From positions 1-56,772 of IMG/VR virus record IMGVR_UViG_3300036944_000989: a DNA stretch of 56,772 nt, one strand, 5' to 3'. Source of the DNA: a virus. Taxonomy: Duplodnaviria > Caudoviricetes. Made by a program: the position numbers and the translations under genes. This document shows positions 2,328-36,006 of this stretch, in pieces. Within the stretch, counting starts at the first letter, position 1. Every line of letters starts with the position of its first letter. Below the pieces are notes generated by a model, which was not told the origin of the DNA, ran no database searches, and was given only the letters and a program-made list of their open reading frames with translations.

Positions 2328-2339
2328 CATCCTCAAAAA

Positions 2340-2354
2340 TTAGTAAATTATAAT
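2340..2354 (+). promoter_or_regulatory. Putative phage late promoter motif TTAGTAAATTATAAT
   Basis: Intergenic; similar motifs at 4296, 7789, 34303 and 41638, each upstream of a rightward gene. Confidence 0.45.
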
Positions 2355-2379
2355 GATATCACTATCAAATATTTAAACT

Positions 2380-4269: not shown

Positions 4270-4295
4270 GCTATCATAGGAAAAAACGAATTATA

Positions 4296-4311
4296 TTTGT
4301 ATATTCTAAAT
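4296..4311 (+). promoter_or_regulatory. Putative promoter TTTGTATATTCTAAAT, overlapping a TAnnTTTG match at 4292-4299
   Basis: Intergenic copy of the recurrent motif; TATATTTG fits the Bacteroidota -7 consensus. Confidence 0.4.
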
Positions 4312-4352
4312 GTAAGACGTTTAATGTCAAACCCTTTAAACTTTAGAAGTTT

Positions 4353-7784: not shown

Positions 7785-7820
7785 AAGGTTAGTATAATTT
7801 AATAAGTAAAAAAATACAGA

Positions 7821-10512: not shown

Positions 10513-13500
10513 ATGGCTGTAGAAAATATTTTTGAAGAAACTCCACAAATGGATTTTAATAATATGATGTCAGGTGATTTACAACAGTCACCTGATTTTG
10601 GTATTAGTAATGCCAGTACTGATATGTCAACTGATACAGATCCTCCTGTAAAAGCAGCTACTGTAAAAAATGATTTGCAAAACATGATCTCACAATCTTT
10701 TAGTGATAGTTTTGCACCTGCACCAAGAACATTACAAAGTGAACTACTTGATGCAAAGAATGTTGAACCTAAATTTTATAATCCAGAAATTGTAGATAAA
10801 TATATATCACAAGACAATTTTGATCCTTATACTTTTAATCCTGAAAATGAAAGTGCTAACATAAAAAGATTTGCACAAGATGAAACATGGGGTGGTGTTT
10901 TAGGTAAAGCATTTGATTCTTTTGCTTTTAATTTTGGAAATACTTTCACAGGTTGGTTTGCAGATTATCCTAAAATGGTTGATGCTATTTTTAGTTTAGA
11001 TTGGGAAAAGATGAAACCAGATGAAGAGAGTCTTATTACTGAATACTATGCACAACAGAAAAACATGAATGAGAATTATGTTTTTGCTGAAGAAGGACAT
11101 GAGAATGATATATTTAGTAAAAAGTTTTTATCTGAGTTTATAGGTAATGCAGGTTTTGCAATGGGAACTGTAGGAGCATTAAGTCTAGAGTTTCTTGCAG
11201 ATGCAGCAATTACAGCTGCAACAGAAGGTGCAGGGTTTCAATCATTTTTTGCAACAACTGCACGTGCATCTGCAAAAATTGCAGCAAGAGAAGCAGCACG
11301 AGAAAGTGCTGAAGCAGGAATAAAAGGAGGAATTAAAGATTTCTTTAAAGGATTCAATGTTGCAGGTAAACCGTTAGATGAAATACCAGATGCATTTAAT
11401 GTATTAAGAGAAGCACAACAAGCAGAAGTGATTGCAGGTTTAGCACATTCTCCTACTATGTCAAGACGTGTAATTAGTAGCTATGCAGACTTGCTTGGAA
11501 ACAATATTTTTAATCTTGGTAAAGCATCAGGTGTTGGTGACTTCTTAGGTAAAGCAATTAAAGCTACACCATTATTAGGTACTAGTATTAGAAATATAGA
11601 AAAGATGGGAGCTGCAAGAGCAGCGGGTGCAACATTACCAGCAATGGTCGGTATGGGTGTTCAATCTGGTAGAAGGTTGATGCAAGAACTTAACATGGCT
11701 GCATCTGAAGCATACTTTGAAGGTATATCATCATATGGTGATACATTAGATAAAATGTATAAGCAGCATGTATTAGAGAATAATGAATCACCTACATATG
11801 AACAGTATGATGCTATGAAAAAACTTGCTGTTAAATCAAGTTCTTCTAACTATGATACTAATATGCAGGTTCTTATTGTTTCAAATCACTTACAATTTGG
11901 AAACTTATTTAATAGATATCTACCCGCAAACAAAGTCGTACAAGATTTATTAGGTGAAACATCAGAAAGAATCCTTACTGTAACAGGTAAACAAGGATTA
12001 GAAGGTGTTATTAAAAAAGGAAAACTTTTAGGTACTGCTGGTATTATAGGAAAGGTGTGGACTGATTTTGGTAAGAAAGAAGCAATCTATCAATTAGGTA
12101 AATCTGCATTACGTAACGTTGCAAGATTTGAAGTAGTAGAAGGTTTACAAGAAAACATACAAGAGACTACTGCAGCAGGATGGAGAGACTACTATGCTGG
12201 ACAATTTAATGGTATTAAATATACATTAGGTGATGCTATGTCAAAAGGGTTTGGTGAGCAATTTACTAAACAAGGATGGAAAACATTCTTAATGGGTGCT
12301 CTGACAGGATCACTTATTAGAATACCAACTAGAGCATTAAATGTAAGTGTTGAAGCTGCTAACAAAGCAATGATTCAGAATCAATACAAAAATGAAGGAG
12401 CAATCAATCCATATGATGCATATGAAAAAAGACTTGATGATGACATTGCTGTATTAAATAATTTTATTAAGAATGCTAAGACTGGTAAATTTGAAGAAAG
12501 ACTTTTTAATTTTAATGCGCAGATATCAGCTGCAAATGATCAAACAGTTTCTGCAGCAGCAGGAGCAGTTTATAATTTTGAAAATGGAAAAGATAATGCT
12601 TTACTAGCTGCTGTATCTGCAGCAAATAGAATTGGTACTACAGATGCATTTGTAAAAACTATTAATAGTACTATTGCAGGAATGGATGCTGAACAATTCA
12701 AAGAAGAGTTTGGTATTGATATTCAGGATACTAAGTATTCATCCCCACAAGAGTTTGCACAGAAAGTTGCAAGTGATGTAAAAATATACACTAAAAAATT
12801 AGAAGACTTTAAACGTGAGTATAGAACAAAATTTGAAGACTTTAATAAGTATGAGTTTGGTACTCAGGATTATATGTTTTCTAGATATATACGCGAGGCA
12901 GAAGAAGAAGCATTACACATTGCTGCATTGAATTCAATCAGTGCAGACATGGCATTACAACGTGCTGAATCTGTTGCTAACGAATTAAGAAAATCTACAG
13001 TACTTGCAAACTCTGCAGATACTGTTTTAAGAACATTAAGTAATAGAGATCAAATTATAGGTGATCTTGGAAATATTAAAGCGCAGGTTAAAGTACTTCA
13101 AGAAAGTTTAAAACAAGAAGGTTTAGATGCTGGTACTGTACGAAGTGTAAAAAAACAAATTAAAGAATTAGAAATTGAATCTGAAAACTTAGTTAAATGG
13201 TATTCATTTTTTGATACACGTAAAGCAATGGCTGAACGTGAAGACAGTCAAAGCACAGATGAGTCTGTAGTTTTTGTAGGTAAGCGATCTAAAAAACATG
13301 CAAGACATAAAAAAATTGCAAATGTTATAACTGAAACAAACAATGTTTATAACCCACAACACAAGGAAGTATTAGCAGCGTTTAAAAAAATATTAAATGC
13401 TAAAAATAAACAAGCAGGTATTGATATAGAAGTTAGTAATAACGAAGCAGAAAAAGCATTGTTACAGTTAATAGATTATATACAACTTGATAAAGACACT

Positions 13501-15147
13501 AAAGACTATTTACAAGCAGTTGAGATACTAACAGATAAAGAAAACTTTAAGAAAGTAACCAAGAATTTACAAAATGGTTATTACAAATACAAGCTTATAT
13601 TATTTAATGATACATTTTTTAATACATTCCAACAAGCATTAAGTGATATTAGTAATGATTTAAATCAAACATTAAACTCTAAAATTACACAAAATGATTA
13701 TGATAAGTTTGTATTGGATGTTCAAAAAGATTTACTACAGTTTAAACCGTACTTAACATTAACTGCTATTATATCAGATACAAACTTTGGTATAGAGCGT
13801 GAGAAAGAAATATCAGAATTACAAGAGAAAATAAATGAATTTATTAAAAGTCGTTTTAGCATATTCATTACAAACTATACAAAAGAAATCTCTAATACAG
13901 AGATATCAGATATAGAGTATAATAAAATAATGCAGGAAAATGACCTTGGTTATATTAGAACAGCATCAATTGCTGAGAAAATAATTGAATCAAATGGTGA
14001 TACGTCTGTTTTATCTGAAAGAGAAAAAGAACTATATGAGAAGTTTACTGAGGAAGTTGATTTAAGAATCAAAGAACGTAAATCAGAAATTGAAAAAGAA
14101 AAGATTATTGAAACAGATGAGGTCCCTGAAGTAGAAACAAATCAATTACCTGAAGATAGCACACAAGAAGATGAACAAGAAGATGACGAAAGTGAAATTT
14201 ATGATGGTGGTGATGATGTAGATAGCTTTACAGGTTATATGAAACCTAGAGGTAAATCTAAAAAAGAAGAAGAAGCACCAGAAGCAAAACCTAAAAGTAA
14301 TAAAAAAGCTGGTACTGAAGATGTACAAAGTTACGAAGAGGAAGAAGAAGAGTTTAACGAAGAGATGTTAGACCAAATGTTTGAAGATGGTGAGATTGAT
14401 GAATCAGAATACATTGCATCTAAAAAAGTATTTGTTGTTACAAATCGTTTGCACAATTTTACAAATAAACCAATTGATAACATGCAAGATGTTATTAATA
14501 ATATTGTATCTGAAATAGATGTACAAGCTTCTAAAAAAGGTAAAACATATTTAACATTTGCAAGTGATCCTAAAAATTCAAAATTCATTGATGCTGTTAT
14601 TAAAAAACATATTTTAAAATCTAACGAAGGAATTGAATTAGAGGATGCACCTGAAGTTGTTTCTGAACCTGAAGTAGTTGTTACAAATAACTTCCCTGAT
14701 AAAAAAGAATTGATGAACATGTCTATTGACTTAGAAGACATTAAAGAAATCAGTGATGTATTATTAGGTGACTTAGTAAGTGCAATTGAAGATGTACCTT
14801 TAGCACCTGCTGAAGCATTACCCGCAGATATTCAAGCATTAATGGGTACAGAGATTACTGCTGAAATACCTATGAATAGAGGTAAAGATAAAACTAAAGG
14901 TATTACTAAAGGTGTAATATCAGATATAAAAATTAATCCTACAAAAAAAGATACTTACAGTATTACTTTAGATAATGGTGAAAGAGTTGCCTGGTCAAAA
15001 GGTAATAAGAAATATGTGTGGGTGCAAGGCATGAATAAATCTAAAACTTCTATTCAGAATTCGGAAAAAAATGTTAACTTTGTTAATGAGGAAGTTAGCG
15101 TAGAAAGTGTCTATGCAAAACTTATAATTAACAAACTTCAATGTTAA
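10513..15147 (+). CDS. Large ejection protein upstream of the virion RNAP, with hydrophobic segments and an acidic linker
   Basis: 1544 aa; G/A-rich hydrophobic segment near 11137-11235; E/D-rich linker near 14110-14410; the only Cys found is the last residue. Confidence 0.7.
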   Translation: MAVENIFEETPQMDFNNMMSGDLQQSPDFGISNASTDMSTDTDPPVKAATVKNDLQNMISQSFSDSFAPAPRTLQSELLDAKNVEPKFYNPEIVDKYISQDNFDPYTFNPENESANIKRFAQDETWGGVLGKAFDSFAFNFGNTFTGWFADYPKMVDAIFSLDWEKMKPDEESLITEYYAQQKNMNENYVFAEEGHENDIFSKKFLSEFIGNAGFAMGTVGALSLEFLADAAITAATEGAGFQSFFATTARASAKIAAREAARESAEAGIKGGIKDFFKGFNVAGKPLDEIPDAFNVLREAQQAEVIAGLAHSPTMSRRVISSYADLLGNNIFNLGKASGVGDFLGKAIKATPLLGTSIRNIEKMGAARAAGATLPAMVGMGVQSGRRLMQELNMAASEAYFEGISSYGDTLDKMYKQHVLENNESPTYEQYDAMKKLAVKSSSSNYDTNMQVLIVSNHLQFGNLFNRYLPANKVVQDLLGETSERILTVTGKQGLEGVIKKGKLLGTAGIIGKVWTDFGKKEAIYQLGKSALRNVARFEVVEGLQENIQETTAAGWRDYYAGQFNGIKYTLGDAMSKGFGEQFTKQGWKTFLMGALTGSLIRIPTRALNVSVEAANKAMIQNQYKNEGAINPYDAYEKRLDDDIAVLNNFIKNAKTGKFEERLFNFNAQISAANDQTVSAAAGAVYNFENGKDNALLAAVSAANRIGTTDAFVKTINSTIAGMDAEQFKEEFGIDIQDTKYSSPQEFAQKVASDVKIYTKKLEDFKREYRTKFEDFNKYEFGTQDYMFSRYIREAEEEALHIAALNSISADMALQRAESVANELRKSTVLANSADTVLRTLSNRDQIIGDLGNIKAQVKVLQESLKQEGLDAGTVRSVKKQIKELEIESENLVKWYSFFDTRKAMAEREDSQSTDESVVFVGKRSKKHARHKKIANVITETNNVYNPQHKEVLAAFKKILNAKNKQAGIDIEVSNNEAEKALLQLIDYIQLDKDTKDYLQAVEILTDKENFKKVTKNLQNGYYKYKLILFNDTFFNTFQQALSDISNDLNQTLNSKITQNDYDKFVLDVQKDLLQFKPYLTLTAIISDTNFGIEREKEISELQEKINEFIKSRFSIFITNYTKEISNTEISDIEYNKIMQENDLGYIRTASIAEKIIESNGDTSVLSEREKELYEKFTEEVDLRIKERKSEIEKEKIIETDEVPEVETNQLPEDSTQEDEQEDDESEIYDGGDDVDSFTGYMKPRGKSKKEEEAPEAKPKSNKKAGTEDVQSYEEEEEEFNEEMLDQMFEDGEIDESEYIASKKVFVVTNRLHNFTNKPIDNMQDVINNIVSEIDVQASKKGKTYLTFASDPKNSKFIDAVIKKHILKSNEGIELEDAPEVVSEPEVVVTNNFPDKKELMNMSIDLEDIKEISDVLLGDLVSAIEDVPLAPAEALPADIQALMGTEITAEIPMNRGKDKTKGITKGVISDIKINPTKKDTYSITLDNGERVAWSKGNKKYVWVQGMNKSKTSIQNSEKNVNFVNEEVSVESVYAKLIINKLQC

Positions 15148-15159
15148 AAACAACATACC

Positions 15160-18100
15160 ATGAATTGTAATTCTTCAGTTGAACACAATAAAGAAATCAT
15201 AAAAGACTTATTAAAACTAGACCCTGTTAAATATAAAAACTTTGACAGGGTTGCTGAGTTTATATTGGATGCTCCAATTGACAATGAAAACAAGTCTGTA
15301 TCATTACATGTTATATCAAATATATTTATAGCACTCGCTGAATACAATCCCTCTTTTGAATCAGGTAAAGCTGCGGAAGTAGCAGGTCTTAGTGAATTAC
15401 TCATTGACATACCTGCACACGTACAAGCTGCAACATCTATTTTAAAACCTTCTAAAAAAATAGTTAACACATATCAAAAACTAATTGATGACTTAGATGA
15501 TGTTTTAAATTCTGATTTATCTAATGAACCAAAATCGTTTTATGCAAACAATGTATTAAAACCTATAAGAGATTTTTTTAATAACTACAAGTTTGTTTCT
15601 CCTGATGAAAAGAAACAAAAGATTCAAGAGGTGTTTACATACTTAAATAAGATAAAAGATGTATCACCGTTTAGTTTATATCTAGAAGATTCGTTTGAAG
15701 AATTAAGTAATGAATTATATAACGTAAACATCTTTAAATCTCTACAAGATATCAAAGATGACAATGTAGATTTAGATACATATATTGTTACATTACAAAG
15801 TAGAGAAGTTGTTGAGGCAGTAAAAGATGACCAGGGGTTTATGACAAATAAACTTACAGGTTTACCAATTGATGAAGCAGATATAGTAGCTCAAAAACTT
15901 GCATTATACCAAAGAGAGTCTGAAAGAAATGATGATAAGATATCACATACTTTTTATAATAATGATTTAGTTTCTGGTTTAAGAATCAAACCCTATAGCA
16001 CAACTGAATCATTTGATGATACTGTTAATGCTTTTGCAGATATTGTTAATCCTGAAAATGAAGTAAAAATTTATGCTGTAAAGATTGATGACTTTGCTGA
16101 TAATCGAGTAGCAGAGATTCAAAGAATAGAAGGATTAGAAAATAGAAATCATGAAACTTTTGAGTCAGAAGCTCAAGTAGAATACTTAAAAGAAAATGCA
16201 GATAACGCTGTAATAGCAATTACACGTGAGAAAAAATCTGAAGAAGTGTTTACTCTTGTTGCTGAAATTGTTAAAGCAGATGGTTCAACATATAATTTTT
16301 ATATATACGGTTTAAATAACTTTGCTGTTTTAAGAGGTGACAACACTACCAGTAAACTTGATTTTACAAGTGTAGATGATTTACAAACTATTCAAGATCT
16401 TGCTGTATTTAGAAATGAAAACGGTAAAATAAAAGATCTTACAGAACATCATTTACTAACTTTAAAAAAGCATGCTGAAAACTTTAACGTATTAAAAAAT
16501 CAGATTGTTAAAAAACTAAATGGTAACGCCAAAACAAATGTACTTGATGTAACAAAAGAGTTTTTTAAAAGTTACAGTTTTGAAAAAGATTTTAAAATTA
16601 AAAAATTTGAACCTCTTAATGAAGCATTAAAAAATAATTCAAATGCGTTTCATGATGTACAAGTAAAAACATATGACGAAAAAGGAAATGTTGTATCTGA
16701 AGAATCAATAAAGATTCCTTTTCTATTTGTTAAACCTTTTTCAAATGCTGTTGATTATAAACCTGTAAACTTTTTAAAAAAGAATCAAAAAATTGTTTAT
16801 AATGATGAAGAATTAGATCTAATAGATTACTTAGAAAAACTTGGATTAGACGGTGATTTTGTAAGTAGTTTATTAGATAGTAAAAATCAAAAATATGCTA
16901 ACTCAATATTCTTAATTAAGAACAAAGAAGGTAAGTATACATATAGAATTGGTAAGTATAGAGAACATATTGATAATGAAGTTTTGTTTTCAAAGTTTGT
17001 TGCTGATTTGAATCTGTATTTAACAGGGGATGTACAAAAAAACTTTGAATCATTTTACGAAAAATATACAATAAGACCTATTAAAAATAAAAATGCAGAG
17101 TCATCATTGGCTCTTGATTTTACAGTAAGTCTTAGTGATCAACTTCAAATTAAAATTGGTACGTTTAAAAACTCAAAAGATTTTGCGGACTTAAAGAAAA
17201 ATGATTTTTACTTTAAGATCCCTAACAAAAGTATAAGAGAGTTACTAAAATCATTCTTACCTTCATCACGTGAGTATGCTTACTTACAACAACAGTTTTC
17301 TTTTTTAAAAGATGTTCAACTATATGATGAAGACAATAACGTTAATTTTAAAAATGTACCTGTAGTTGTAGATAAAATCTTTAACAATGCTCTTGCTGGT
17401 AAAGATCCTATTATCAAAGAGATGTTTGATAACATTGAAAAAGCAAAGATTCAATTTAATAACCTTATCAAAACAAATGTAATTGATGTTATTAACAATC
17501 CTAAAAACAATGAGGAATATGGTGAGTTTATAAAACAAGTTAATGAAGACTTTGGAAGTTTAGATAATTTATTTTTCAATCACTATGATGATCAATTTAA
17601 AACACCGTTTGTAAAATTTGGTGAACTGTCAGTAAATGAAGTAAATGAAGATCTAACAGTGTCATTTAACAACTACGGTCTTGTTAACTCTACTACTAAA
17701 AAATTAATTATTACACCTAAAAAAGCAGGTAACGTTGCACCAACAAGTTCTGTTGTAACAGTTTCTAAACCTGTAAGAAATAAAATAAATACAAAAGTTG
17801 ATAAAACAATTTTAGAAACTACTGTAACAGAAAGAAATAATGAACCCACTTTAGAAGCTCCTGAAACAAGTGTAGTAATTGAAGAAGCGGAAGAACCAGA
17901 AAACTTTGATGATGAGGCACCGTTTTCTGTATTAGAACAAGGTGAGCGACAACTTGCAACTGAACAAGAAATACTTACAGAAGATAAGTGGCTTGCTGAT
18001 ACATATGCTACTGAACTAGGTGTTGAGTATTCCTTAGATGGTATTAAAGATATAATAGAACTAACTAAGTTAGAAGGTTCTGTATTAGGTGCTGTAAAAA

Positions 18101-24100: not shown

Positions 24101-27100
24101 CATTTTTAAGTCAATATAGAGACGAACTTTTTAGAATTGTTAAAGATCCTGTATTTAGATTTGTTTCTGGTGAAACTGGAGAATACAATATTTACGGTGA
24201 CATTGGAGGTTTTAATATTGATGATGAACGTATTATTGGTATTATTGGTAATATCTTAGGTATGTTTGCAGATGGTGCAAAAGAACCAATTCCTGCTGCA
24301 TTAAATCTTAATGAAGTTAATACACCTGTTACGTTAGCAATGATTGCTGTTGGAATTAAAACTCCTCTTGCTATTGCTTTTAACTTTATACCTGAAATTA
24401 AAACAGCAATTGAAAATGTACAAAAATCTACTTATGCTGTAAATGATGGATTACAAAACTCTAGAAAATATTTAGTTAATGAACTAGGTAATATGATTAG
24501 AGATTTGCAACATGAAAGAAAGGTTGATAAAGACTACAAGATTATTAATGAACTTAAAGATGCAGGTTTGATATCTCAAAAAGGTAACATTAATAATATG
24601 GAAGGTTTAGGTGGTCCAAACCTTGTTATCGCATTTAATCAAAAAAAGTTAGATAAAGAATCTTTATTAGATAACACATTAACCTTAGACGAATTAGGTA
24701 TTAGAGTTTCTGCTATCAAAACGCTTGAAAGCATTGATGAAAATGAAGAGGTTGTAAAAGCTACTACAGAAGTTCAACTTTCTGAAAAAGCTCAAAAACT
24801 TATCTTACTTCATTTATATAAAGAGCAAGCAAAACAAAATGGTACTATCACTTCTGCTGGTAATATTGTTAACATGTTTAAAAGACTAAGACCTGATTTT
24901 GAATTCCTTGACAAAATGCTTAAAGATGTTAAAGAATTAAAAAATGGTAACTCTTTAGTGCCTGGTGAAATTGCAGATAAAATATTTTCAGATGATCAAG
25001 TGTTTAATGTAATTGATAGAATACTCCAACACATAGATAGAAAATCTCAAATCATGTTCATTGAAAGATCTGAACATTTTAAACATATAAGAAACACATT
25101 TGAAAACTTGTTTAAAAGTAAAGACTTGTTTGCAAAAACAATCACATCTTATATTGCTTTAAACAAATACAAGCAGGCATTTTCACAAAATGATCCTAGT
25201 TATTCTCAACTTACAGATGAGCAGAAAGCTAAGAAGGATGAAGAGACAGCTATGATATTAGAAATGTTTAATGCTGATTATTGGTTTGATAATGATTTAG
25301 AAAGTGAGTTGTCAGAGATGCAAGAAAAACATCCTGAAAATGCATTCTTAAATAGACTACGTACATTTACTACTTCAAATGAAGCAATCATAAAAGCTGA
25401 AAATGAAGAAGATAATAAATTTGTAAATGAAAAAATTATCACATTACTTGGTACAGCAAAACTTACAGGAAGACTGTTGGAAAATGTAGAAAATGATGCA
25501 CATAACTTATTTAAACAAGAACCTATGTTCTTTAAAAGGTTATTCATACATGAAATTATAAGAACAGGATTGATGCAAAAATCTGGTTCATACATGCCAT
25601 ATCTTAATCCTGACTTTAAATTAGGAATCTCAAAACACTTAAATGATTTTGAAGATATTTTAAAAACTATAAATAATCCATCTGAATTAATTTCTAAATT
25701 AAAAAGTTATTTTAACTATACATCTGATGAGGAGCTATATACATTCTTTGAAACAATGTTATATAACTTAGTATACCAATCATCTGATGAAATTGATAAT
25801 AACAGAATTAGAACCATTGCGTCTTCTAAGAGACCTATTAATGTAGATAGAGTAAATGGATTCAGTAAGATAGATACTAGTGATTTAAATGATCCTGATG
25901 CAGATCCTGTTGATGAATTAATAGATTACATATTACCTATACCAGGTGTTGCACAGTTTGATGGAGAAGAGCTTTATCTTACTGATGACATATTTGATTA
26001 TAAAACTGAGCAAAATAAAAAAGCAGAGGATGTAATTTTTAATTTTAATATTCCTAATAAGTCTTACGGAAACATTACACAAAACAACATGATTGACATT
26101 GCAAAATCTTTTGATATTGCATATGATAGTAATACTAAAATGTTTGTGTTTCCAAGTGCAATAATTATTGGAGAAAGTTATTATGTATTAAAAGGTACAG
26201 ATACTCATATAAACAGACCGTTAGGTTTTAACCTACTTAGTTCTGAAAAATATGAATCTGCAAAAGAAGAGTTTATTACAACTTACAATACAGGTACTTT
26301 AGCTTTGTATAAAAGATTACCTAACAAACCTATAGGTAGTAGTATTAGTGCATTAGCATTTAATAGTGATCAACTAAAACGTTATGCTGATTTAACTGCA
26401 AGTGAACCTACTCAATTCTTAAACATTCCAGGACCTAAAAAATCTAAAAAAGAAGTTAGGTATTCATTAGATGCAATCATTAATAAAACTTCTCAGAATA
26501 AAGATGCTTTACAGTATAACGTTATTTATCCAACTAATGATAAAGCTGAACTATTAGAAAAATTAAATGAGTTGCAAAAACTTCATAACGAAGGTGTTGC
26601 TTTATATACAATGCGTGTATCTAAAAAACAAGCAAAACACTTCAAAGGTTTAGATGAACAACATCATTATGGTAATCCTTTTACAGGTACAAATAAAAAA
26701 GATCAGATTCCTATGAATGGAATTACTGCAGCTGTTAATGCATATGAGCAGTGGTTAGATGGTCAAGATGAATTTATTGATAAGAACGGTGTTGCTCATG
26801 ATTTATCTCAAGAAGAAGATTCACAAGGTGTAGAGTACAGTGAAAGACGTGACTGGATTAATAGTAGAATAGAAAAGTTAAGTCAAAAACCTGAGATCAT
26901 TAAACTTGGATATTTCTTAAAAGGTTACAGAAGTCATGCTGATATACTTGATGAGCGTATGAATAAAGGAAAACGTGACACTACACAAAGTGCTGAAGTT
27001 GAGGAAGTTACAAAATCAGATTTATCATATGAGGATACTTCTAAAAAAGAACCAACTCAATTACAGTTAGAATTAGAATTAGATGATACACCTGCTGATT

Positions 27101-27198: not shown

Positions 27199-27215
27199 TC
27201 AATAAATAAAAAATT

Positions 27216-28196
27216 ATGCCTTGCAAAATAAAAATTAAACAGCACGTAGAAAACTTGGTTGAACAAAAATCTCAACCAGGTTTATCTATGTCTTTACAAG
27301 ACGCTCAAATATTATCTGCAAATATTAATTCTCAGTTTATGCATCATGTAGTATCATTTAAAAATGAGAATGATGTTGTTAAAAGAGTTATTGATATTCC
27401 ATCTAAACTTGTAGATATGTATTATGATCTGCAGGTAAAAAAAGAAGTTATTAAAACTCCAACCGTTGAAATAAAACCTGGGATACAAGAATTATTTGAT
27501 TCTAATCCTGAGTTAGCTAATATAGGTACAGCAGAACAATACTCTGCATACCTTGATTCTATATTTCCAGATAGTAAGGTAAAAGATATTGTTTATAGAG
27601 GAGCAGAAAAAGGAATAGAAACTCATAAAGCATACTCTCATTGGACTTTAAGAAAAGCTCTTGCAGAAAATTTTGCTAAACAAGGAGTTAATCTTAATAA
27701 AAAAGATGAATCAAAAAATACTGTTTATTTTGCTTTACTTAATATAAAAAATTTAATAAGAAGTATTGATATAACAGATGAAGAACATAAAGAAAGTGGT
27801 TTTGATGCAGCGGCTTCATTTCCTAATCAACAAAAACCAGATGGTACTTATTATGATAATGAAGAAGCAAATGAATCTATACAATTAATAGACAAAAGTT
27901 TAAACAATGAAATAACTGTATTTGAATCAGAACAAATTCATATATTAGGAACTAAAGAAGATATAGAAGGGTTTAAAAAATTCAACAATAATAAACAAGA
28001 TGTTAGTGGTTTAAATTCTGACATAAACAGTTTGAATTTAACTCCAGAAGTCGTAAATTACTTATACAGAAGCAGTCGTAGTAAATCTAAAAACGTAAGT
28101 TTAGAATCTTATACTAAAGAAGTTAAGAAATTAATTGATAACTTGCGGACTAGTTACACAAATGAAGAAATTTTAGAAAAAATTAAATGCTTGTAA
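27216..28196 (+). CDS. Small cargo protein with an ART-PolyVal-like ADP-ribosyltransferase-fold domain
   Basis: Contains LFDSNPELANIGT.EQYS.YL.SIFPDSKVKDIVYRG ... VYFALLNIKN ... GFD ... EITVF..EQIHILG. Cys occurs only at positions 3 and 325. Confidence 0.55.
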   Translation: MPCKIKIKQHVENLVEQKSQPGLSMSLQDAQILSANINSQFMHHVVSFKNENDVVKRVIDIPSKLVDMYYDLQVKKEVIKTPTVEIKPGIQELFDSNPELANIGTAEQYSAYLDSIFPDSKVKDIVYRGAEKGIETHKAYSHWTLRKALAENFAKQGVNLNKKDESKNTVYFALLNIKNLIRSIDITDEEHKESGFDAAASFPNQQKPDGTYYDNEEANESIQLIDKSLNNEITVFESEQIHILGTKEDIEGFKKFNNNKQDVSGLNSDINSLNLTPEVVNYLYRSSRSKSKNVSLESYTKEVKKLIDNLRTSYTNEEILEKIKCL

Positions 28197-28197
28197 T

Positions 28198-31100
28198 ATG
28201 AGTAAATCATGTCCAGTAGGAAAAGAATGGGATGAATTTGTTGATGGTCTTAAAAGTTCAAATAATAAATTATCTTTTTCAGATGCATTAGTTGCCTATA
28301 GTATTTTTAATACTAAAAATAATACTGAGGATCTAATTCCTACAGTTGAAGAGGCACGTAATATATTAAATAATATTACAGCTCTTGAAAAAGATGAAGA
28401 GTTTGTTAGATTAAATGCAGCTTCTAAGATTCAAAAATACTCTGAACAGCTTTTACAATTAGGAGATATCTACGAAAATTTTGCTAACAATAAACAAAAG
28501 GCGGCATTAGAAAAGATCATCACTATGACAGAAAATCATATTGATGCACTTAATAGTCCTATTACACCTAAAACAATCAGTGTTTCTAATTTTATAGGGA
28601 CCTCTACATTTAAAGGAGATCCAAATGAGTATGCAGCATTTAGAATATTTGGAACATTTATTCACGATTTATTAGAAGATGTACAACGTACATCTTTGAT
28701 AAAAGGAAATGTCTCATTTAAAAAAGTATTTACCCGTGATTATTTTAATGAGAAATTAAATCAATTTCAAGAAAAAGAACCTTTTGAAATTAAGTCATTA
28801 GATAATGACAAGTTATTTTTAATAGCACAAGATCTAGTAGAGCAAATTAATGCATTAAAAAAACGGGGTTATTTAATATTACCAGAAATATCTGTTATTG
28901 GTTCTGATGAAAATGGAGCACTTATAGTAGGACGTATTGATATGTTATTACTTGATACTCAAGGTAATGTAAAAATTTACGATTTTAAAACTAAAAAGGT
29001 TCAAGGTTTATTAGATGAAGGTGACGATTGGCAAGTTGATAATGCATCTATAGCACTTGCAGGGTTATCAAAAAAAGTATCTATATATAGTACTAAAGAT
29101 CAACCTGAAGGTACTCAAACAAAATTTATTACTGGTGAGTTTGGTTCACGAAGTGCATATGACACGTGGGCAATGCAGATTAATGTATATAAAAACATAC
29201 TAGGACAAATTGGATTAGATGTTAATGGTCATACTATTTTGTCTTTATTATATGAAACAGATGAAGATAAAAACTTTTTAGGCAGTACTGTACATGAGTT
29301 TGAATTAGAGAATTACTACTTGTATGCAGATCATGATGTGTTGTTAGATGCTAATGGTGTAAGTTACATTGCTAAAAGACAGTTAGATACAAGAATTGAT
29401 AAAATCGTAGCTCTTGTAGATAAGCATGTACCAACTTCAAAAAACAAAAAAGAAATAGAAATAAAAACAACGCGTTTATTAAATGAAGTTCTTCAACCTT
29501 CAGAAGAAGACTACATTATAATGCGTGAAAACATTAAACGTTTATTAGATAAAGAACTAATAGAGGTAAACAATAAAATTAAAAATGCAAAAACCATTGC
29601 AATTAAAAAACTATTAATTGAAAGACGTGATTCATTAATGAATTACAAGACCTTGTTGGAAAAAATGAGCAATGAGGATTTTGATAAATCAATTAACACT
29701 GCAACAACTCTAGATTATTTAAATTCTGAATTAACATTCTTAAATGAAAAAGCAGAAGAACTTATAGAAAAGTTTAATAATAATCAAGAAGCATTTAATA
29801 AAAATGATTTAAAGAGAATGGATTTAATTTATAAATCCTCTGAAGGTTTAAGTGATATTATTAAAGTAATGCAGCGGGTTATTAATGAAGCAAAAGATAA
29901 CGAAGAGAATGGAATCACTGAATTAAGTCCTGCTGTAAACATGTTGGGAGATATAATATTATACAAAGAAAATATTAGTAATATTAAATCTAGAATATAC
30001 AGACAGCAAGCTGTTGCAAAAATTCTAAAGACACCAGGTAAAAAAGTGTTTGATAGAATTAGTGAGCAAATGGCGGAACTTGTAACAAAAGAGATTGAAG
30101 TATTAGAAAAAGAAATCGAAGACTTAAACTCTAACAAAGGTTTGACTATTTTACAAACCATGAAAAGTAAAGTTCTTCAAAAAATAAGTAGTTCATATAA
30201 ACAAAAGTTAGATGAAAAACTAGCACCTACATCTCCTAAACTTGCACTTATAGAAGAGAAAGAAAGGATGATAAAAGTTTTTAAATCTCTTATGGCAGGG
30301 ACGTTTGATTATACAGACACTGCAGTACTTGCATATTTAGATAATATAACTAATCCTGATAGTACTTTTTATATAGGATCAGATAGAGTATTACCTTATT
30401 CTACTCTTATATCTGGATCTCTTACTAACAACTGGGTTGCATCTGTAGCAAATAAAGACTTAGCATTGTCAGGAGCTACACAGTTTCTCAAGAATGCAGC
30501 AGCAGGTGCTGTAAGAAATGCACAAAATGATTTTGCGTCTTCTAACTTTGATGCACTTCGTGAAAAATTATATCGTTCTGGTAGATCATTTGAGCAAATA
30601 AATAAAGCAATAACAGAAAGAGTTGTTATTAAATATCGTGATCCTAATACTAAAGAGTTGATGGAGCGAGAAGTATTATCAATTGTTGCACCATATACAC
30701 AAGAGTATAAAGATACTTGGAACTCATATAAAGCATTCTTAAAAGAAGCTGATTTTAGAATTAGACAATTAAAATCAGAAAGAAATAACATATTCTTAAA
30801 AAGAGATGATGCATCTAAAAAACGTGTTGAAGAATTAACAACAGAAATACTAGATGCACAAAATGATAGAGCAAGTAAAATAAAAGCACACAATCAATGG
30901 ATGATAGAGAACTCTTCTTTGCCATACATTGATGAGTTTTATACTTTACAAAAAGAATTACCTGTAGAAATTGCAGAAAAGCTTCAAGACTTATATTTAG
31001 AGCTTGAGACATATAGATTTATGCAGGATAAAAAAACTCGTACATATGATGATGAGGCAATTGAAGGTGATGATGAAACTACAGATTTTGATTTTTCAAG

Positions 31101-34100
31101 AATAGGTGAAATCGAGGATGACATCAGAGGACTCAGAGAACAAGCAAAAGAATTAGATCCTAAATACGCAGAATACATTAGTAGACTGGATGAGTTTTAT
31201 GAATATGACATACGATATGATTACTACCAACGTCAAAAAAGTATAGCATTATCTAAGTTTCAGAATAATCCAGAAGAATTACAAAGATGGATGGAGGAAA
31301 ATGAGATTACCATTGCAAAAAAAGAATGGTATGAAGAGCTTAGTGGTTTATACGAAGAACTTTCTATTTACTATGGATCAGATCCTGTATATAAAGATAT
31401 GCTTGATGAGCGTAATAAAATATTAAGAAAGCATAAGTATGTTGACGGAGTATTAAGACCTCAGTATATGTCTGATGAAGACGTTAGAAAGTATGATCAG
31501 ATTGAAAAAGAAATTGAAGAGTATAAAAACAGCAGAAAAAAAACAAAATTAGATGAAGATTCTGTTGACGCTATAAATGATATATTCTTTAAGATAGAGC
31601 GTTTAAAACAAAAAGATAAAAACAAATATTATACCCAGGAATTGGATATGAGATTTGAAAAACTTAGTAACAGACTTGCACTTGTAAACGAATACGATGC
31701 ACAATATGCGTCATTGATTGCAAAAGGTGTAACTGGTGAAGAGTTGGACAATGTAAAAAAATTACTTACTGCATATGAAGTGCAGTTTGATAAGGAAGAA
31801 AGTGAATACAAAAAATGGTATAACAAAAACCATAAGAATAAATACAAGTCTATAACAAAAGGATACGGTAAATCAAATGCTGATCCTAAAGAATTTAACT
31901 ACGTGACTGGTCCTGCAGAAGCTGTTAAAGAACAATATACAGAAACTGTTCCTCATCCTAAGTATACTAAACGTAGAATGAAACAGGACGCTTATTATGT
32001 AGACGGTATCAAACTTATAGATGAACAAAAAGAAGAATTGTTATCTGATAAAAATACAATGACTCGTTTAACAAATGAGGGTAGATTGAATTTTGAAAAA
32101 GGTGTTTACAATCCTAACTATTTAGAAACACCTGATGGTATACCTATGCCTAAGAACATTATCAAAGTTGATGATAACGTGTATGCTCCTAAACCAGGCG
32201 CAGGATTTCAGAATATAAATCCACGTTATATGGAGTTATATAAAGACAAAGACTTGTTTGAGTTTTATGCAGCGATAACTTCTATGTTTTTTGAATTGCA
32301 AAAACAAACAGATGGTAGAACATTAGGATACGTAGTACCTGGTTCAGTTTCTGGTTTTGTGCAGTCGTTACATTCAGAAGGTTTAATATCTGCCATAAAG
32401 AAACAAAAAGAAATCTTTGTAGATAAAAATGTAAGAGCGTATGGTAGTGCTCAAGATATTGATGAGAACTTATTTGGTGATTTAAAAAACAGTATTAGAC
32501 TAAGAGGTAATAATCAATTTGAATCTCTTATACAATCTGATGACGCTATTAGTTCTGTAATGCAGTGGGTTGCAGAAGCACACTATAATATTGCAATGCA
32601 AGAAGCAGCTCCTGTTGTTGATGCTTTTATAGATGAGTTAAAATCTAAAGCAGCTGAGTTATCAGAGAAAGTAAAAAGAAGTGATAAAGGAGTTGTAAGA
32701 GATATAGACGGTAGTCTTATCAAAGCTGTAGATTTTGAAAAACGATTATCAGAATTAGATGGTATTATTAAACTTGCTGAATACGAAAGAAACAAGTTTG
32801 TATCTGGTCAATATGAAGACCCATCCGCAGCATCACGTGCTATAACAAAAAAACTAAAAGCATTTTTTACATATACTAGTTTCATTAGAATTGGTTTTGA
32901 CGTAACTAACCAAACTAAAAACTTAGTTGCAGGTAGTATACAATCGTATATTGCAGCATGTGATTTTCAAACAGGTCACTATGGTAAGAAAGATTACCAC
33001 TGGGCAAATGGAAAGATGTGGGGATTTAGTGGAACAGTTGGACAATATCTAAAAGACTTAGGTAATATCAGTGATGTAAGCGACAGCACTATGATCTATA
33101 GATTATTTAATCCTGTACAAAAAGAATTTGATAAGTATCTAAGAGATACGTCAGGTAAAAAATCTAGAAAAGTACTAGGTAAGTTGGCAAACATAAACGA
33201 GTTAGCTTATTTTTTACAAGATAAAGGTGATACTATTATTGGTATGACTGTAATGTGGTCAGTATTAAACAGTTACAAATACAGACAGATTGAAAAGTTT
33301 ACAGATGATGGTCAACCTGTATATGTAAAAGACAACAACGGTGATGATGTTTATGTATCAGCACATGAAGCTTATATGAAAAACCCTGATACTAACGAAT
33401 TGGTAATCAGAGATGACGTAGAATATACTGTTGATGATGAAAATATGTTACGTAATATTATTTACTCTGAGATGCGTAGAGCACAGGGTAACTATGCTAA
33501 ATCTGATCAGGTAAAAGCTGAAGCATCTGCACTAGGTAAAATGGTATTGTTCTTTAGAAAATACCTTGTACCATTGTTTATGAATAGATTTGGTTACATG
33601 AAAACTAACTGGGAAGCTGGTGAAATTGGAATTGGTTATTATAGAGCAACACTGTTGGCGTATAGACAATTTGGTGGATTACAAGTTGCAAAACATCTTC
33701 TTGTAGGTGGTAAAACATTGAATAGATTTAATGCAAACACTATGGGTAAATTTCTTACTGCAAAAGTAAACCATACGCGTAGAGATTTTATGGCAATGGT
33801 AATACTTTCAATGCTATCAATGTCAGCATTAGCATGGTATAAAAAACGAAAAGAAGATGAACCTGATGAAGATGAGTTATCACTTGCTACAAGATATAAA
33901 AACGTAGCATTAGATAATATGCTTAGATTATTATGGCAGGTTAAAGGTGAGACTAACTCTATGAGTCCATTTGCAACTGAAAGTCAGACAGAATATATTA
34001 AAAACTTTACAACAGGTATCCCTTTCCAACGTGAACTTTTAGCAGGACAAAAACTTGTATCACATGTTAAAGGTACAATTGCTGTACAACTTGCTAATGG

Positions 34101-34302
34101 TGGTGCAGAACCAGATGAGGATCTTGATTCACAATGGTACCAAGAAAACTGGAAAGATGCATATTATTCTAGAAAATCTGGAAGTTTTGAAAAAGGTGAC
34201 TCTAAATTAATTAAAGACTTTATTGACTTAACAGGTTATAGAAACCTAAGAGATTTAGTTAACCCAGAAAACAGACTTGAGTTTTTACAATCTAAACAAT
34301 AA
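28198..34302 (+). CDS. Large ejection protein with N-terminal PD-(D/E)xK nuclease domain and C-terminal membrane segment
   Basis: 2034 aa; GTFIH..LE, PE, GRID, IYDFKT and Q..VY form a RecB-like motif set (about 28640-29190); TM-like FMAMVILSMLSMSALAWY at 33787-33840. Confidence 0.75.
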   Translation: MSKSCPVGKEWDEFVDGLKSSNNKLSFSDALVAYSIFNTKNNTEDLIPTVEEARNILNNITALEKDEEFVRLNAASKIQKYSEQLLQLGDIYENFANNKQKAALEKIITMTENHIDALNSPITPKTISVSNFIGTSTFKGDPNEYAAFRIFGTFIHDLLEDVQRTSLIKGNVSFKKVFTRDYFNEKLNQFQEKEPFEIKSLDNDKLFLIAQDLVEQINALKKRGYLILPEISVIGSDENGALIVGRIDMLLLDTQGNVKIYDFKTKKVQGLLDEGDDWQVDNASIALAGLSKKVSIYSTKDQPEGTQTKFITGEFGSRSAYDTWAMQINVYKNILGQIGLDVNGHTILSLLYETDEDKNFLGSTVHEFELENYYLYADHDVLLDANGVSYIAKRQLDTRIDKIVALVDKHVPTSKNKKEIEIKTTRLLNEVLQPSEEDYIIMRENIKRLLDKELIEVNNKIKNAKTIAIKKLLIERRDSLMNYKTLLEKMSNEDFDKSINTATTLDYLNSELTFLNEKAEELIEKFNNNQEAFNKNDLKRMDLIYKSSEGLSDIIKVMQRVINEAKDNEENGITELSPAVNMLGDIILYKENISNIKSRIYRQQAVAKILKTPGKKVFDRISEQMAELVTKEIEVLEKEIEDLNSNKGLTILQTMKSKVLQKISSSYKQKLDEKLAPTSPKLALIEEKERMIKVFKSLMAGTFDYTDTAVLAYLDNITNPDSTFYIGSDRVLPYSTLISGSLTNNWVASVANKDLALSGATQFLKNAAAGAVRNAQNDFASSNFDALREKLYRSGRSFEQINKAITERVVIKYRDPNTKELMEREVLSIVAPYTQEYKDTWNSYKAFLKEADFRIRQLKSERNNIFLKRDDASKKRVEELTTEILDAQNDRASKIKAHNQWMIENSSLPYIDEFYTLQKELPVEIAEKLQDLYLELETYRFMQDKKTRTYDDEAIEGDDETTDFDFSRIGEIEDDIRGLREQAKELDPKYAEYISRLDEFYEYDIRYDYYQRQKSIALSKFQNNPEELQRWMEENEITIAKKEWYEELSGLYEELSIYYGSDPVYKDMLDERNKILRKHKYVDGVLRPQYMSDEDVRKYDQIEKEIEEYKNSRKKTKLDEDSVDAINDIFFKIERLKQKDKNKYYTQELDMRFEKLSNRLALVNEYDAQYASLIAKGVTGEELDNVKKLLTAYEVQFDKEESEYKKWYNKNHKNKYKSITKGYGKSNADPKEFNYVTGPAEAVKEQYTETVPHPKYTKRRMKQDAYYVDGIKLIDEQKEELLSDKNTMTRLTNEGRLNFEKGVYNPNYLETPDGIPMPKNIIKVDDNVYAPKPGAGFQNINPRYMELYKDKDLFEFYAAITSMFFELQKQTDGRTLGYVVPGSVSGFVQSLHSEGLISAIKKQKEIFVDKNVRAYGSAQDIDENLFGDLKNSIRLRGNNQFESLIQSDDAISSVMQWVAEAHYNIAMQEAAPVVDAFIDELKSKAAELSEKVKRSDKGVVRDIDGSLIKAVDFEKRLSELDGIIKLAEYERNKFVSGQYEDPSAASRAITKKLKAFFTYTSFIRIGFDVTNQTKNLVAGSIQSYIAACDFQTGHYGKKDYHWANGKMWGFSGTVGQYLKDLGNISDVSDSTMIYRLFNPVQKEFDKYLRDTSGKKSRKVLGKLANINELAYFLQDKGDTIIGMTVMWSVLNSYKYRQIEKFTDDGQPVYVKDNNGDDVYVSAHEAYMKNPDTNELVIRDDVEYTVDDENMLRNIIYSEMRRAQGNYAKSDQVKAEASALGKMVLFFRKYLVPLFMNRFGYMKTNWEAGEIGIGYYRATLLAYRQFGGLQVAKHLLVGGKTLNRFNANTMGKFLTAKVNHTRRDFMAMVILSMLSMSALAWYKKRKEDEPDEDELSLATRYKNVALDNMLRLLWQVKGETNSMSPFATESQTEYIKNFTTGIPFQRELLAGQKLVSHVKGTIAVQLANGGAEPDEDLDSQWYQENWKDAYYSRKSGSFEKGDSKLIKDFIDLTGYRNLRDLVNPENRLEFLQSKQ

Positions 34303-36002: not shown

Positions 36003-36006
36003 AAAT

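What the first reader, a model, noticed from the sequence alone, without database searches (positions are those of the whole stretch)
10513..34302. Terminal-cysteine pattern: four consecutive ejection proteins look built to form a head-to-tail disulfide-linked chain in gene order
Seen: the four ORFs total 7,916 aa but contain about 8 Cys by manual count, and 6 of these lie within 5 residues of a terminus. The 1544-aa protein has one Cys, its last residue (15142-15144). The vRNAP has Cys3 (15166) and a C-terminal Cys (27193), plus one internal. The 326-aa protein has only Cys3 (27222) and Cys325 (28188). The 2034-aa protein has Cys5 (28210) plus one internal. The first member lacks an N-terminal Cys and the last lacks a C-terminal Cys, so each gene junction has exactly one Cys pair and the outer ends have none. 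No Cys was seen in the four upstream cargo proteins. Known: crAss-like phages package and eject these giant proteins, including the RNAP. Inference: the proteins are covalently concatenated in the oxidised virion, threaded through the tail as one ordered chain, and released by reduction in the host cytoplasm. Both end members have membrane-like segments. I am not aware of this mechanism having been described.
Basis: partly seen in the sequence, partly recalled or inferred. Interest (0 to 1): 0.92.

Follow-up and report, generated by a model that had tools for sequence, protein, structure and literature searches.

The report
Terminal cysteines couple giant phage cargo proteins
Four consecutive giant proteins of this crAss-like phage, one of them its particle-borne RNA polymerase, are almost free of cysteine except at the ends that face the next protein, a rule kept in every relative examined, which points to untested end-to-end disulfide links that string them into one chain.

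Summary
The four ORFs total 7,916 aa and hold 8 Cys. Six of these are at residues 3-5 or at the last or second-last residue of the six termini that face a neighbour, and none is at the two outer ends.

It is not chance. In a tally of 30 genomes, 122 of 122 junction-facing termini carry a Cys within 10 residues, against 0 of 60 outer termini. Only 51 internal Cys occur in 214,116 residues. The tally covers the window's own clade and cultured phages: phi14:2, crAss001, DAC15, crAss002, Lbo-JY46 and phi17:2.

Where genes are fused, the pair at that point is absent. An intron-split gene and a frameshifted gene also lack it.

The disulfide itself is not shown here. However, a published cryo-EM structure of cyanopodophage A4 shows exactly such a bond, gp27 Cys1715 to gp26 Cys5. 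A-4L has the same sequence signature.

The multi-link chain that includes the RNA polymerase was not found in print in my searches. This scan has noted the same idea before on other DNA: 281 notes in at least 242 genomes.

Threading as one chain and release by reduction remain inference.

The parts
10513..15147 (+). Protein A, 1544 aa, first member of the chain. It has one Cys, its last residue, and no Cys at the N-terminus.
   Evidence: Homologues in 20 of 20 further genomes have exactly one Cys, within the last 3 residues.
15142..15144 (+). TGT codon for Cys1544 of A (the tail at junction 1).
15160..27198 (+). Protein B, 4012 aa, crAss-type virion RNA polymerase homologue. Cys3, Cys4012 (last) and a non-conserved Cys2602.
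15166..15168 (+). TGT codon for Cys3 of B (the head at junction 1).
23161..23175 (+). DLDID, residues 2668-2672 of B. It is the counterpart of the DFDxD catalytic motif of crAss-like RNA polymerases, with Phe replaced by Leu.
   Evidence: The motif definition is from 10.1101/2020.03.07.982082 (abstract listing, section 8).
27193..27195 (+). TGT codon for Cys4012 of B (the tail at junction 2).
27216..28196 (+). Protein C, 326 aa. It has a conserved N-terminal segment (about 72 aa, starting MPC), a variable middle (about 185 aa) and a conserved C-terminal segment (residues about 264-326, ending KIKCL). Its only Cys are Cys3 and Cys325.
27222..27224 (+). TGC codon for Cys3 of C (the head at junction 2).
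28005..28193 (+). C-terminal 'KIKCL' coupler domain of C (residues 264-326). In many relatives it is attached directly to the end of B.
   Evidence: W_C 264-326 aligns to G004_B 3714-3773. (Cys and the final Leu are invariant in 16 of 16 rows).
28188..28190 (+). TGC codon for Cys325 of C (the tail at junction 3).
28198..34302 (+). Protein D, 2034 aa, last member of the chain. Cys5 plus a non-conserved Cys1588, and no C-terminal Cys. It has a PD-(D/E)XK nuclease domain at residues 148-288.
28210..28212 (+). TGT codon for Cys5 of D (the head at junction 3).
   Evidence: It is the only invariant column in the first 29 residues of 14 aligned homologues.
72..10508 (+). Four upstream Cys-free ORFs (751, 629, 1143 and 895 aa). 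They are presumed further cargo or virion proteins and are not part of the Cys-coupled chain.
   Evidence: The ~870-aa 'MATF...' homologue has 0 Cys wherever it is complete in the loci.
34335..36498 (+). Two downstream Cys-free ORFs (555 and 163 aa). The 555-aa one has weak PHROG matches to a peptidase and a minor tail protein.

Best explanation
The six terminal cysteines are couplers. In the finished particle, the Cys at the C-terminal tip of each protein forms a disulfide with the Cys at residue 3-5 of the next. A, B (the RNA polymerase), C and D thereby become one nearly linear covalent chain of about 7,900 residues.

Docking of each tail domain onto the next protein's N-terminal domain probably comes first. 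Oxidation then locks it. The likely uses are loading the proteins into the head in fixed proportion, holding the internal core together, and fixing the order in which they leave. Thiol reductants of the host cytoplasm would then separate them.

What is shown:
- The Cys pattern, its deep conservation and its tracking of protein boundaries.
- The RNA polymerase identity of B.
- From the literature, a real disulfide of this type in phage A4.

What is inferred:
- The disulfides in this phage.
- Docking before oxidation.
- Ejection as one thread.
- Reductive release.
For: 1. Window: 6 of 6 facing termini have a Cys, 0 of 2 outer termini do, and there are 2 internal Cys in 7,916 aa.

2. A relative with about 36% identity (G001) has 6 Cys in 8,213 aa, all at the six facing termini.

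3. D homologues: 13 of 13 full-length ones have a Cys at residue 2-5 and none near the C-terminus. Cys5 is the only invariant column among the first 29.

4. 48 IMG/VR loci. The ORF upstream of D ends with a Cys within its last 7 residues in 45 of the 45 loci that hold one. D starts with a Cys at residue 3-6 in 46 of 48. The other two are cut by or open at the contig end. Many of these loci are close kin.

5. 20 of 20 further whole blocks obey the rule at every junction.

6. Tally of 30 genomes: 122 of 122 facing termini, 0 of 60 outer termini, and 51 internal Cys in 214,116 aa. Control: of 118 other ORFs in 21 of the same loci, 5 have an N-terminal and 12 a C-terminal Cys within 10 residues.

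7. Cultured or reference phages obey the rule:
- phi14:2 g067/g066/g065 have 4 Cys in 5,398 aa, all terminal and facing.
- Also crAss001 gp47/gp50/gp49, DAC15, crAss002 and IAS virus, cr1_1 and Lbo-JY46, phi17:2 and cr3_1, and cr118_1 and cr108_1.

8. The pairs track protein boundaries:
- B-C fused forms have only Cys3 and the second-last Cys. The KIKCL domain is joined straight to B.
- A-B fusions (cr1_1, cr118_1) keep only the B/D pair.
- B-D fusions (crAss002, cr3_1) keep only the A/B pair.
- An apparent gene break without Cys in cr108_1 is a group I intron (RF00028, 80 bits, E 1.1e-20).
- An apparent break in L045 is a frameshift at an A-run.

9. In crAss001, DAC15 and IAS virus, A is encoded on the other strand. 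The rule therefore acts on proteins, not on DNA or coupled translation.

10. Precedent: cryo-EM of phage A4 shows a disulfide between gp27 Cys1715 and gp26 Cys5, with the C-terminal helix of gp27 inserted into a cleft of gp26 (PMC12002296, passages). In the A-4L record, gp27 (1717 aa) has a single Cys, third from the end. gp26 (1114 aa) has a single Cys5.

11. crAss001 virions do contain disulfides in tail and portal-vertex proteins (PMC10172136, passages).

12. Complex prediction of D residues 1-300 with the 72-aa KIKCL domain gave weak support.
- Score 0.40; best of 3 controls 0.02.
- The mark was reached by 58 of 80 solved complexes and 2 of 110 mismatched pairs. At 0.60 or under it was reached by only 7 of those 80, and by both mismatches that passed.
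- The runs agree in at least 64% of contacts, and the partner's pLDDT is at least 74.
- My own alignments were used, so the counts hold only roughly.
Against: - No measurement of any kind exists for this phage or its clade, and no solved structure covers a crAss junction. The PDB holds only 6VR4 for g066 and nothing for g065.
- The crAss001 reconstruction did not resolve gp47, gp49 or gp50. The passages I saw report no disulfide for them.
- Gut crAss phages assemble and travel in low-oxygen settings.
- Independent fusion or fission events are few. B-C split versus fused needs only one change on the D tree. I did not place the A-B and B-D fusions on a tree.
- Fusion removes the termini themselves, so loss of the Cys there is weaker evidence than it first looks.
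- The C-terminal Cys can sit up to 9 residues from the end (crAss001 gp50).
- IAS virus has many internal Cys (9 and 6). Its gp055/gp056 boundary has ambiguous bases. If these are two proteins, gp056 lacks an N-terminal Cys.
- phi17:2 has a small ORF (119 aa, Cys13 and Cys22) between two members.
- Lbo-JY46 has an unpaired Cys5 on another 674-aa protein.
- For crAss002, the rule holds only if the start is moved to Met33.
- In A4 the linked proteins form a folded pentameric ring. The bond may therefore serve core stability rather than threading.
- The complex prediction is only a weak pass.
Confidence: 0.65

Rival explanations
1. The facing termini do pair junction by junction, but not through a disulfide. 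The two thiols share a metal ion, possibly with ligands from a second copy of the junction, or they are simply key contacts of a non-covalent tail-into-head dock.
For: The same comparative evidence as for the main reading applies, because it shows pairing, not chemistry. Several copies of each protein per virion are estimated for crAss001 (PMC10172136, passages), so two junctions could build one four-ligand site. A reducing or anoxic habitat would favour metal over disulfide.
Against: There is one Cys per terminus, with no conserved His or second Cys beside it (termini printed). The only solved case with this signature shows a disulfide.
Confidence: 0.12
2. The Cys pair differently. The two-Cys members (B, C) close into loops through an N-to-C disulfide within one chain. 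The one-Cys members (A, D) bond to each other or form homodimers.
For: The parity fits. B and C have two terminal Cys, and A and D have one each. In C, both ends carry similar K-I-K motifs (MPCKIKIK and KIKCL). B-C fusion would also keep a two-Cys protein.
Against: It gives no reason why A always has the Cys at its C-terminus and D at its N-terminus (0 of 60 outer termini). An A-B fusion (cr1_1, cr118_1) or a B-D fusion (crAss002, cr3_1) would each break two different bonds and leave two orphan Cys. Yet the Cys that remain are exactly a facing pair. In A4 the bond is between the two proteins.
Confidence: 0.08
3. Each terminal Cys has a role of its own, and the pairing is only apparent. Possible roles are attachment to the portal, scaffold or capsid interior, a capsid-targeting or processing signal, a cysteine-switch on a protease domain, or a chemical modification.
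For: The heads of different members look alike (MxC followed by K/Q and a hydrophobic residue). This could mean one common reader rather than specific partners. gp65-type proteins are said to carry a zincin-like protease domain (10.1101/2020.03.07.982082, section 8).
Against: It does not explain why tails and heads always occur together at a boundary, never at the outer ends, and never at fused, intron-split or frameshifted points. No HExxH motif is present in the window's D.
Confidence: 0.1

Closest known systems
Cyanopodophage A4 (Anabaena phage A-4L) pre-ejectosome proteins gp27 and gp26 (PNAS 2025, PMC12002296; passages read)
   Same: These are two consecutive ejection proteins, each with a single Cys. 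The upstream one has it third from the C-terminus (Cys1715 of 1717). The downstream one has it at residue 5. Cryo-EM shows that these two Cys form a disulfide inside the virion, with the C-terminal helix of gp27 docked in a cleft of gp26.
   Different: - A4 has one link between two proteins of 1,717 and 1,114 aa, in a 42-kb T7-like phage without a virion RNA polymerase. Here there are three links over four proteins that include the polymerase.
- No BLASTP similarity was found to the window's A-D, or to the Lbo-JY46, phi14:2 or phi17:2 proteins, at E <= 0.01.
- A fold search with D residues 1-300 gave no A4 chain.
- In the passages I saw, the paper treats the bond as a stabiliser of a folded pentameric ring, not as a general coupling rule.
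RNA-polymerase cargo module of Crassvirales: phi14:2 gp67-gp66-gp65 (gp66 = PDB 6VR4) and crAss001 gp47-gp50-gp49
   Same: - B shares the DxDxD catalytic motif, and a profile of the window-clade B region hits these polymerases.
- The C-terminal part of D is distantly related to the last member.
- The same Cys rule holds.
- The phi14:2 and crAss001 proteins are virion components.
   Different: - The window's block is larger (7,916 aa against 5,398 and 6,102 aa) and has an extra member, C.
- B is about 4,000 aa with the motif at residue 2668, and the motif reads DLDID.
- None of the papers I searched mentions these cysteines. The terms cysteine and disulfide occur 0 times in the gp66 preprint. 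In the crAss001 atlas, cysteine occurs 0 times and the disulfide passages shown concern only tail and portal-vertex proteins.
- Membership of the window in the order Crassvirales was not tested.
Ejection proteins of N4-like phages (Schitoviridae), such as DEV gp71-gp73 and N4 gp50-gp52
   Same: These are giant virion-packaged RNA polymerases plus partner ejection proteins, with strong avoidance of cysteine. The homologues have 0.00075% Cys against 0.865% in the proteomes. This has been explained by passage through the periplasm (PMC11445570, passages).
   Different: According to those passages the proteins have essentially no Cys at all, including at their ends. They offer no terminal couplers. 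The polymerase is of a different (T7-like) kind, per passages of PMC13434306.

Membership tests
crAss-like virion RNA polymerase module | DxDxD (DFDxD) catalytic motif in the giant middle protein | tested here: met
   DLDID at residues 2668-2672 of B. 14 of 17 window-clade B proteins read DFD[IV]D at the aligned place. The window, G002 and G013 read DLD[IV]D.
crAss-like virion RNA polymerase module | Sequence similarity of the polymerase region to known crAss polymerases | tested here: met
   A local profile of the window-clade B region was searched with hmmsearch --max against 13 proteins. Hits: crAss002 gp33 64.7 bits, crAss001 gp50 37.4, DAC15_63 25.5, phi14:2 g066 20.0. Each hit covers the motif, and the flanking A- and D-type proteins scored below zero. 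With default filters nothing passed. Pfam, PHROGs and the PDB sequence search found nothing for B.
crAss-like virion RNA polymerase module | The last member is homologous to gp49/g065-type proteins | tested here: inconclusive
   The evidence is indirect. The window's D and crAss001 gp49 both hit the same place in Lbo-JY46 (E 2e-5; E 4e-27). The D profile gives 18.6-30.6 bits to DAC15_62, the crAss002 gp33 C-terminus and Lbo-JY46 in a set of 23 proteins, but nothing to crAss001 gp49 or phi14:2 g065.
crAss-like virion RNA polymerase module | The proteins are present in virions and are ejected | not testable with these tools
   Known only for phi14:2 and crAss001, by mass spectrometry (annotation; PMC10172136 passages).
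Order Crassvirales | Capsid, portal and terminase phylogeny | not tested
   The window (47% of a genome) was not searched for these genes. No close match exists among 50,697 phage records.
Head-to-tail disulfide-linked ejection proteins (A4 gp27-gp26 type) | The upstream protein has a Cys within a few residues of its C-terminus and the downstream protein has one at about residue 5, and both are otherwise nearly Cys-free | tested here: met
Head-to-tail disulfide-linked ejection proteins (A4 gp27-gp26 type) | The disulfide is observed in the particle | not testable with these tools
   Seen only in A4.
Head-to-tail disulfide-linked ejection proteins (A4 gp27-gp26 type) | Homology to A4 gp26 or gp27 | tested here: not met
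   BLASTP gave no hit at E <= 0.01. Foldseek of D residues 1-300 (mean pLDDT 71.1) against the PDB gave no match at E <= 0.001. The best rows are AddB/AdnA nuclease domains. The likeness is therefore one of mechanism, not of shown ancestry.

The most novel reading that the evidence does not exclude
Reducible head-to-tail cysteine couplers are a general, modular 'train coupling' of crAss-like and related phages. Any protein that carries the N-terminal head (M-x-C...) and a C-terminal Cys tail is taken into the ejected train.

Gene C is a wagon whose middle cargo is exchangeable. It is 149 aa with couplers only in G002, 326 aa here, and 644, 665 and at least 757 aa elsewhere.

On this reading, the whole train of up to about 8,200 residues passes the tail as one pseudo-polypeptide. 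The host's cytoplasmic reductants uncouple it, which also times the start of viral transcription.
Probability: 0.3. Interest if true: 0.9.

Novelty: new variant of a known kind. Interest (0 to 1): 0.8.

Why it matters
crAss-like phages are the most abundant viruses of the human gut. How they load and deliver about 700-900 kDa of RNA polymerase and partner proteins is an open question. [quoted passage not shown]

A simple sequence rule says which ends touch, and in which order. It holds in every genome examined here, from marine and freshwater metagenomes to cultured phi14:2 and crAss001.

The rule turns the question into bench tests that can be run at once on cultured phages:
- non-reducing gels;
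- disulfide mapping;
- Cys-to-Ser mutants.

It also gives annotators a practical check. It flagged a mis-called start in crAss002, an intron-split gene in cr108_1 and a frameshift in one contig.

It further suggests how new cargo domains can be added to the ejected set.

Tried and rejected
Searches and tests that led nowhere:
- Megablast with B and tblastn with C against 50,697 phage records gave no match. D gave only one weak hit, to Lbo-JY46.
- PHROGs and Pfam gave no family for A, B or C. The PDB sequence search with B and with the D profile gave nothing meaningful.
- The search for loci with the two-row A alignment found only 3 loci. I therefore fetched the blocks by coordinates instead.
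- In the distant clade (G017-G020), A is 2,727-2,901 aa. I tested whether the A/B boundary has moved relative to the window. BLASTP found no usable similarity, so the question stays undecided.
- hmmsearch with default filters found no crAss polymerase. With --max it did.
- I asked whether D's N-terminal 300 aa fold like A4 gp26. No such match appeared.
- I looked for a zincin HExxH motif in D. None is present.
- A DNA-level motif at the junctions was rejected.
- Chance or composition was rejected.
- L045 as a counter-example was rejected. It is a frameshift with continuous homology.
- cr108_1 gp054/gp053 as a counter-example was rejected. It is a group I intron.

Literature. Searches found no paper on terminal cysteines of crAss cargo proteins. 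The A4 paper was not found by my own searches; it came as a lead from earlier notes of this scan, and I then read its passages.

What I saw of each paper:
- PMC10172136: passages.
- PMC11445570: passages.
- 10.1101/2020.03.07.982082: abstract listing, passages and section 8.
- PMC13434306: passages.
- PMC7886860: passages.
- PMC12002296: passages.

I opened no supplementary files. The crAss001 atlas ran reduced and non-reduced virion samples for mass spectrometry. Its extended tables, which I did not see, may bear on the claim.

Full report
OBSERVATION.

I call the four proteins A, B, C and D.
- A: 10513-15147, 1544 aa. One Cys, its last residue.
- B: 15160-27198, 4012 aa. Cys3, Cys2602 and Cys4012 (last).
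- C: 27216-28196, 326 aa. Cys3 and Cys325.
- D: 28198-34302, 2034 aa. Cys5 and Cys1588.

Together they hold 8 Cys in 7,916 aa. Six sit at the six termini that face a neighbour, and none sits at the two outer ends.

The four upstream and two downstream ORFs have no Cys at all. The whole block 72-36498 has 0.066% Cys, against 1.39% in the rest of the window. The junction DNA shares nothing but the Cys codons.

CONSERVATION IN THE WINDOW'S OWN CLADE.

The window is an IMG/VR record estimated to be 47% complete. It has no close relative among 50,697 deposited phage genomes.

- A relative at about 36% identity (G001) has 6 Cys in 8,213 aa of the four homologues, all at the six facing termini.
- Thirteen of 13 full-length homologues of D have a Cys at residue 2-5 and none at the C-terminus. 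That Cys is the only invariant column among the first 29.
- In 48 loci around D homologues, the upstream ORF ends with a Cys within its last 7 residues in 45 of the 45 loci that hold one. D begins with a Cys at residue 3-6 in 46 of 48, and the other two are cut by or open at a contig end. Many of these loci are close kin.
- Whole blocks fetched from 20 more genomes obey the rule at every junction, 20 of 20. A never has an N-terminal Cys.

BEYOND THE CLADE.

The same logic holds in cultured and reference phages.
- phi14:2: g067 (1797 aa, Cys only as the last residue), g066 (the crystallised polymerase, only Cys3 and Cys2179 of 2180) and g065 (only Cys3).
- crAss001: gp47 (Cys2339 of 2341), gp50 (Cys5, Cys1334 and Cys2404 of 2412) and gp49 (Cys5).
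- DAC15.
- IAS virus, where ambiguous bases lie at one annotated boundary.
- crAss002 and cr3_1.
- cr1_1 and cr118_1.
- The cyanophage Lbo-JY46.
- Cellulophaga phage phi17:2, which is not classified in Crassvirales.

A tally over 30 genomes gives 122 of 122 facing termini with a Cys within 10 residues, 0 of 60 outer termini, and 51 internal Cys in 214,116 residues. IAS virus, cr108_1, cr118_1 and A-4L are not in that tally. As a control, of 118 other ORFs in 21 of the same loci, 5 have such an N-terminal Cys and 12 such a C-terminal Cys.

NATURAL EXPERIMENTS.

The number of protein boundaries differs between lineages, and the Cys pairs follow it.

- **B-C fusion.** In one clade the C-terminal 'KIKCL' domain is joined directly to B (W_C 264-326 aligns to G004_B 3714-3773). 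Those proteins have only Cys3 and the second-last Cys, plus 0-2 internal Cys. On a tree of D this split-or-fused difference needs only one change, so it is one event.
- **A-B fusion.** A-B fusions in Suoliviridae keep only the B/D pair.
- **B-D fusion.** B-D fusions in Intestiviridae keep only the A/B pair. In crAss002 this needs the start at Met33 (M-S-C) instead of the annotated one.
- **Apparent exceptions.** Two apparent boundaries without Cys are not protein boundaries. One is a group I intron (RF00028, 80 bits). The other is a frameshift at an A-run with continuous homology.
- **Strand.** In crAss001, DAC15 and IAS virus, A is encoded on the opposite strand. The rule therefore concerns proteins, not neighbouring DNA.

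The two kinds of fusion each leave exactly a facing pair. This favours junction-wise pairing over loops within B plus an A-D bond.

WHAT THE PROTEINS ARE.

B carries DLDID at residues 2668-2672. Most clade members have DFD[IV]D at this place. A profile of this region hits the polymerases of crAss002, crAss001, DAC15 and phi14:2 around their motif, and does not hit their neighbours.

D has a PD-(D/E)XK nuclease domain. Its C-terminal module is distantly shared with the last chain member of Lbo-JY46, DAC15 and crAss002.

C consists of a conserved head of about 72 aa and a conserved tail of about 65 aa around a variable middle. In G002 it is 149 aa and has no middle at all. Elsewhere it is 193-195, 644, 665 or at least 757 aa.

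Hydrophobic segments in A and D are weak.

MECHANISM.

The most economical reading is a disulfide at each junction. This would make a nearly linear covalent chain A-B-C-D, because every Cys lies within 5 residues of an N-terminus or 9 of a C-terminus.

A direct precedent exists. In cyanopodophage A4, cryo-EM shows gp27 Cys1715 bonded to gp26 Cys5, with the tail helix of gp27 docked in gp26 (PMC12002296). In the A-4L record these are the only Cys of the two proteins, third from the end and fifth from the start. I found no sequence or fold similarity to the window's proteins, so the likeness is functional.

crAss001 virions are known to hold disulfides in tail and portal-vertex proteins.

Co-folding of D residues 1-300 with the KIKCL domain gave weak support.
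- Score 0.40; best control 0.02.
- The mark was reached by 58 of 80 solved complexes and 2 of 110 mismatches. At 0.60 or under it was reached by only 7 of the 80, and by both mismatches that passed.
- The runs agree in at least 64% of contacts, and the partner's pLDDT is at least 74.

Loading in fixed proportion, ordered exit and reductive release are inference. In A4 the linked proteins form a folded ring, so stabilising the core may be the main role.

KNOWN AND NEW.

Avoidance of Cys in ejected proteins is known for N4-like phages. A single head-to-tail disulfide is known for A4.

I found no paper that notes the terminal Cys of crAss cargo proteins (searches; term counts). This scan has noted the same idea many times on other genomes: 281 notes in at least 242 genomes.

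I class it as a new variant of a known kind: a multi-link chain that includes the virion RNA polymerase and a modular extra member.

LIMITS.

- There is no experimental evidence for this phage.
- Independent fusion events are few.
- ORF starts are my own or the depositors' calls.
- p-crAssphage itself was not in the collection under the accession I tried.
- No supplementary files were opened.

Noticed in passing
L086:13088-13406 (uncultured phage cr108_1, NC_055878): A group I intron (RF00028, 80 bits, E 1.1e-20) lies between the annotated genes gp054 (2967 aa) and gp053 (798 aa). They are probably two exons of one giant protein.
   Followed up: partly
L081:7270-7368 (Bacteroides phage crAss002 gp33): The annotated start looks about 32 codons too early. 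An internal Met33 is followed by Ser-Cys, like the M-x-C heads of all relatives. The 170-base gap upstream holds no other frame.
   Followed up: partly
L045:8579-8600: The D homologue is broken by a frameshift at a run of A. Homology to the L050 protein continues across it. It may be a sequencing error or a real slip site.
   Followed up: partly
window 27432-28004: The middle of C (about 185 aa) is absent from the 149-aa homologue of G002 and is replaced by unrelated, longer inserts in other relatives. Pfam and PHROGs give no family.
   Followed up: partly
window 72-2327: The C-terminal part (residues 615-716) of the 751-aa Cys-free ORF weakly matches a PHROG of ADP-ribosyltransferases (E 9.7e-5).
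   Followed up: no
window 23161-23175: The polymerase motif reads DLDID here, and DLD[IV]D in G002 and G013, instead of the DFDxD of other crAss-like polymerases. The three Asp are kept.
   Followed up: partly
L083:2626-4650 (Leptolyngbya phage Lbo-JY46, protein XAI97385): A 674-aa protein upstream of the chain has a single Cys at residue 5, and no neighbour has a facing C-terminal Cys. It is an unpaired head.
   Followed up: no
L084:14714-15073 (Cellulophaga phage phi17:2 gp037): A 119-aa ORF with Cys13 and Cys22 sits between two members of the chain (gp038 and gp036) and overlaps the start of gp036.
   Followed up: no
L077 (crAss001 gp47, residues 1745-1836): The profile of the window's D matches gp47 of crAss001 in the nuclease region (20.3 bits in a set of 23). 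The PD-(D/E)XK-like domain may therefore sit in a different chain member in different lineages.
   Followed up: no
L080:9522-9532 (IAS virus gp055/gp056): The two annotated genes overlap, and ambiguous bases are translated as X in the last residues of each protein. They may be one polymerase protein split by sequence quality.
   Followed up: no
window 18151-18165: B has an HEAFH motif at residue 998. Its conservation was not checked.
   Followed up: no
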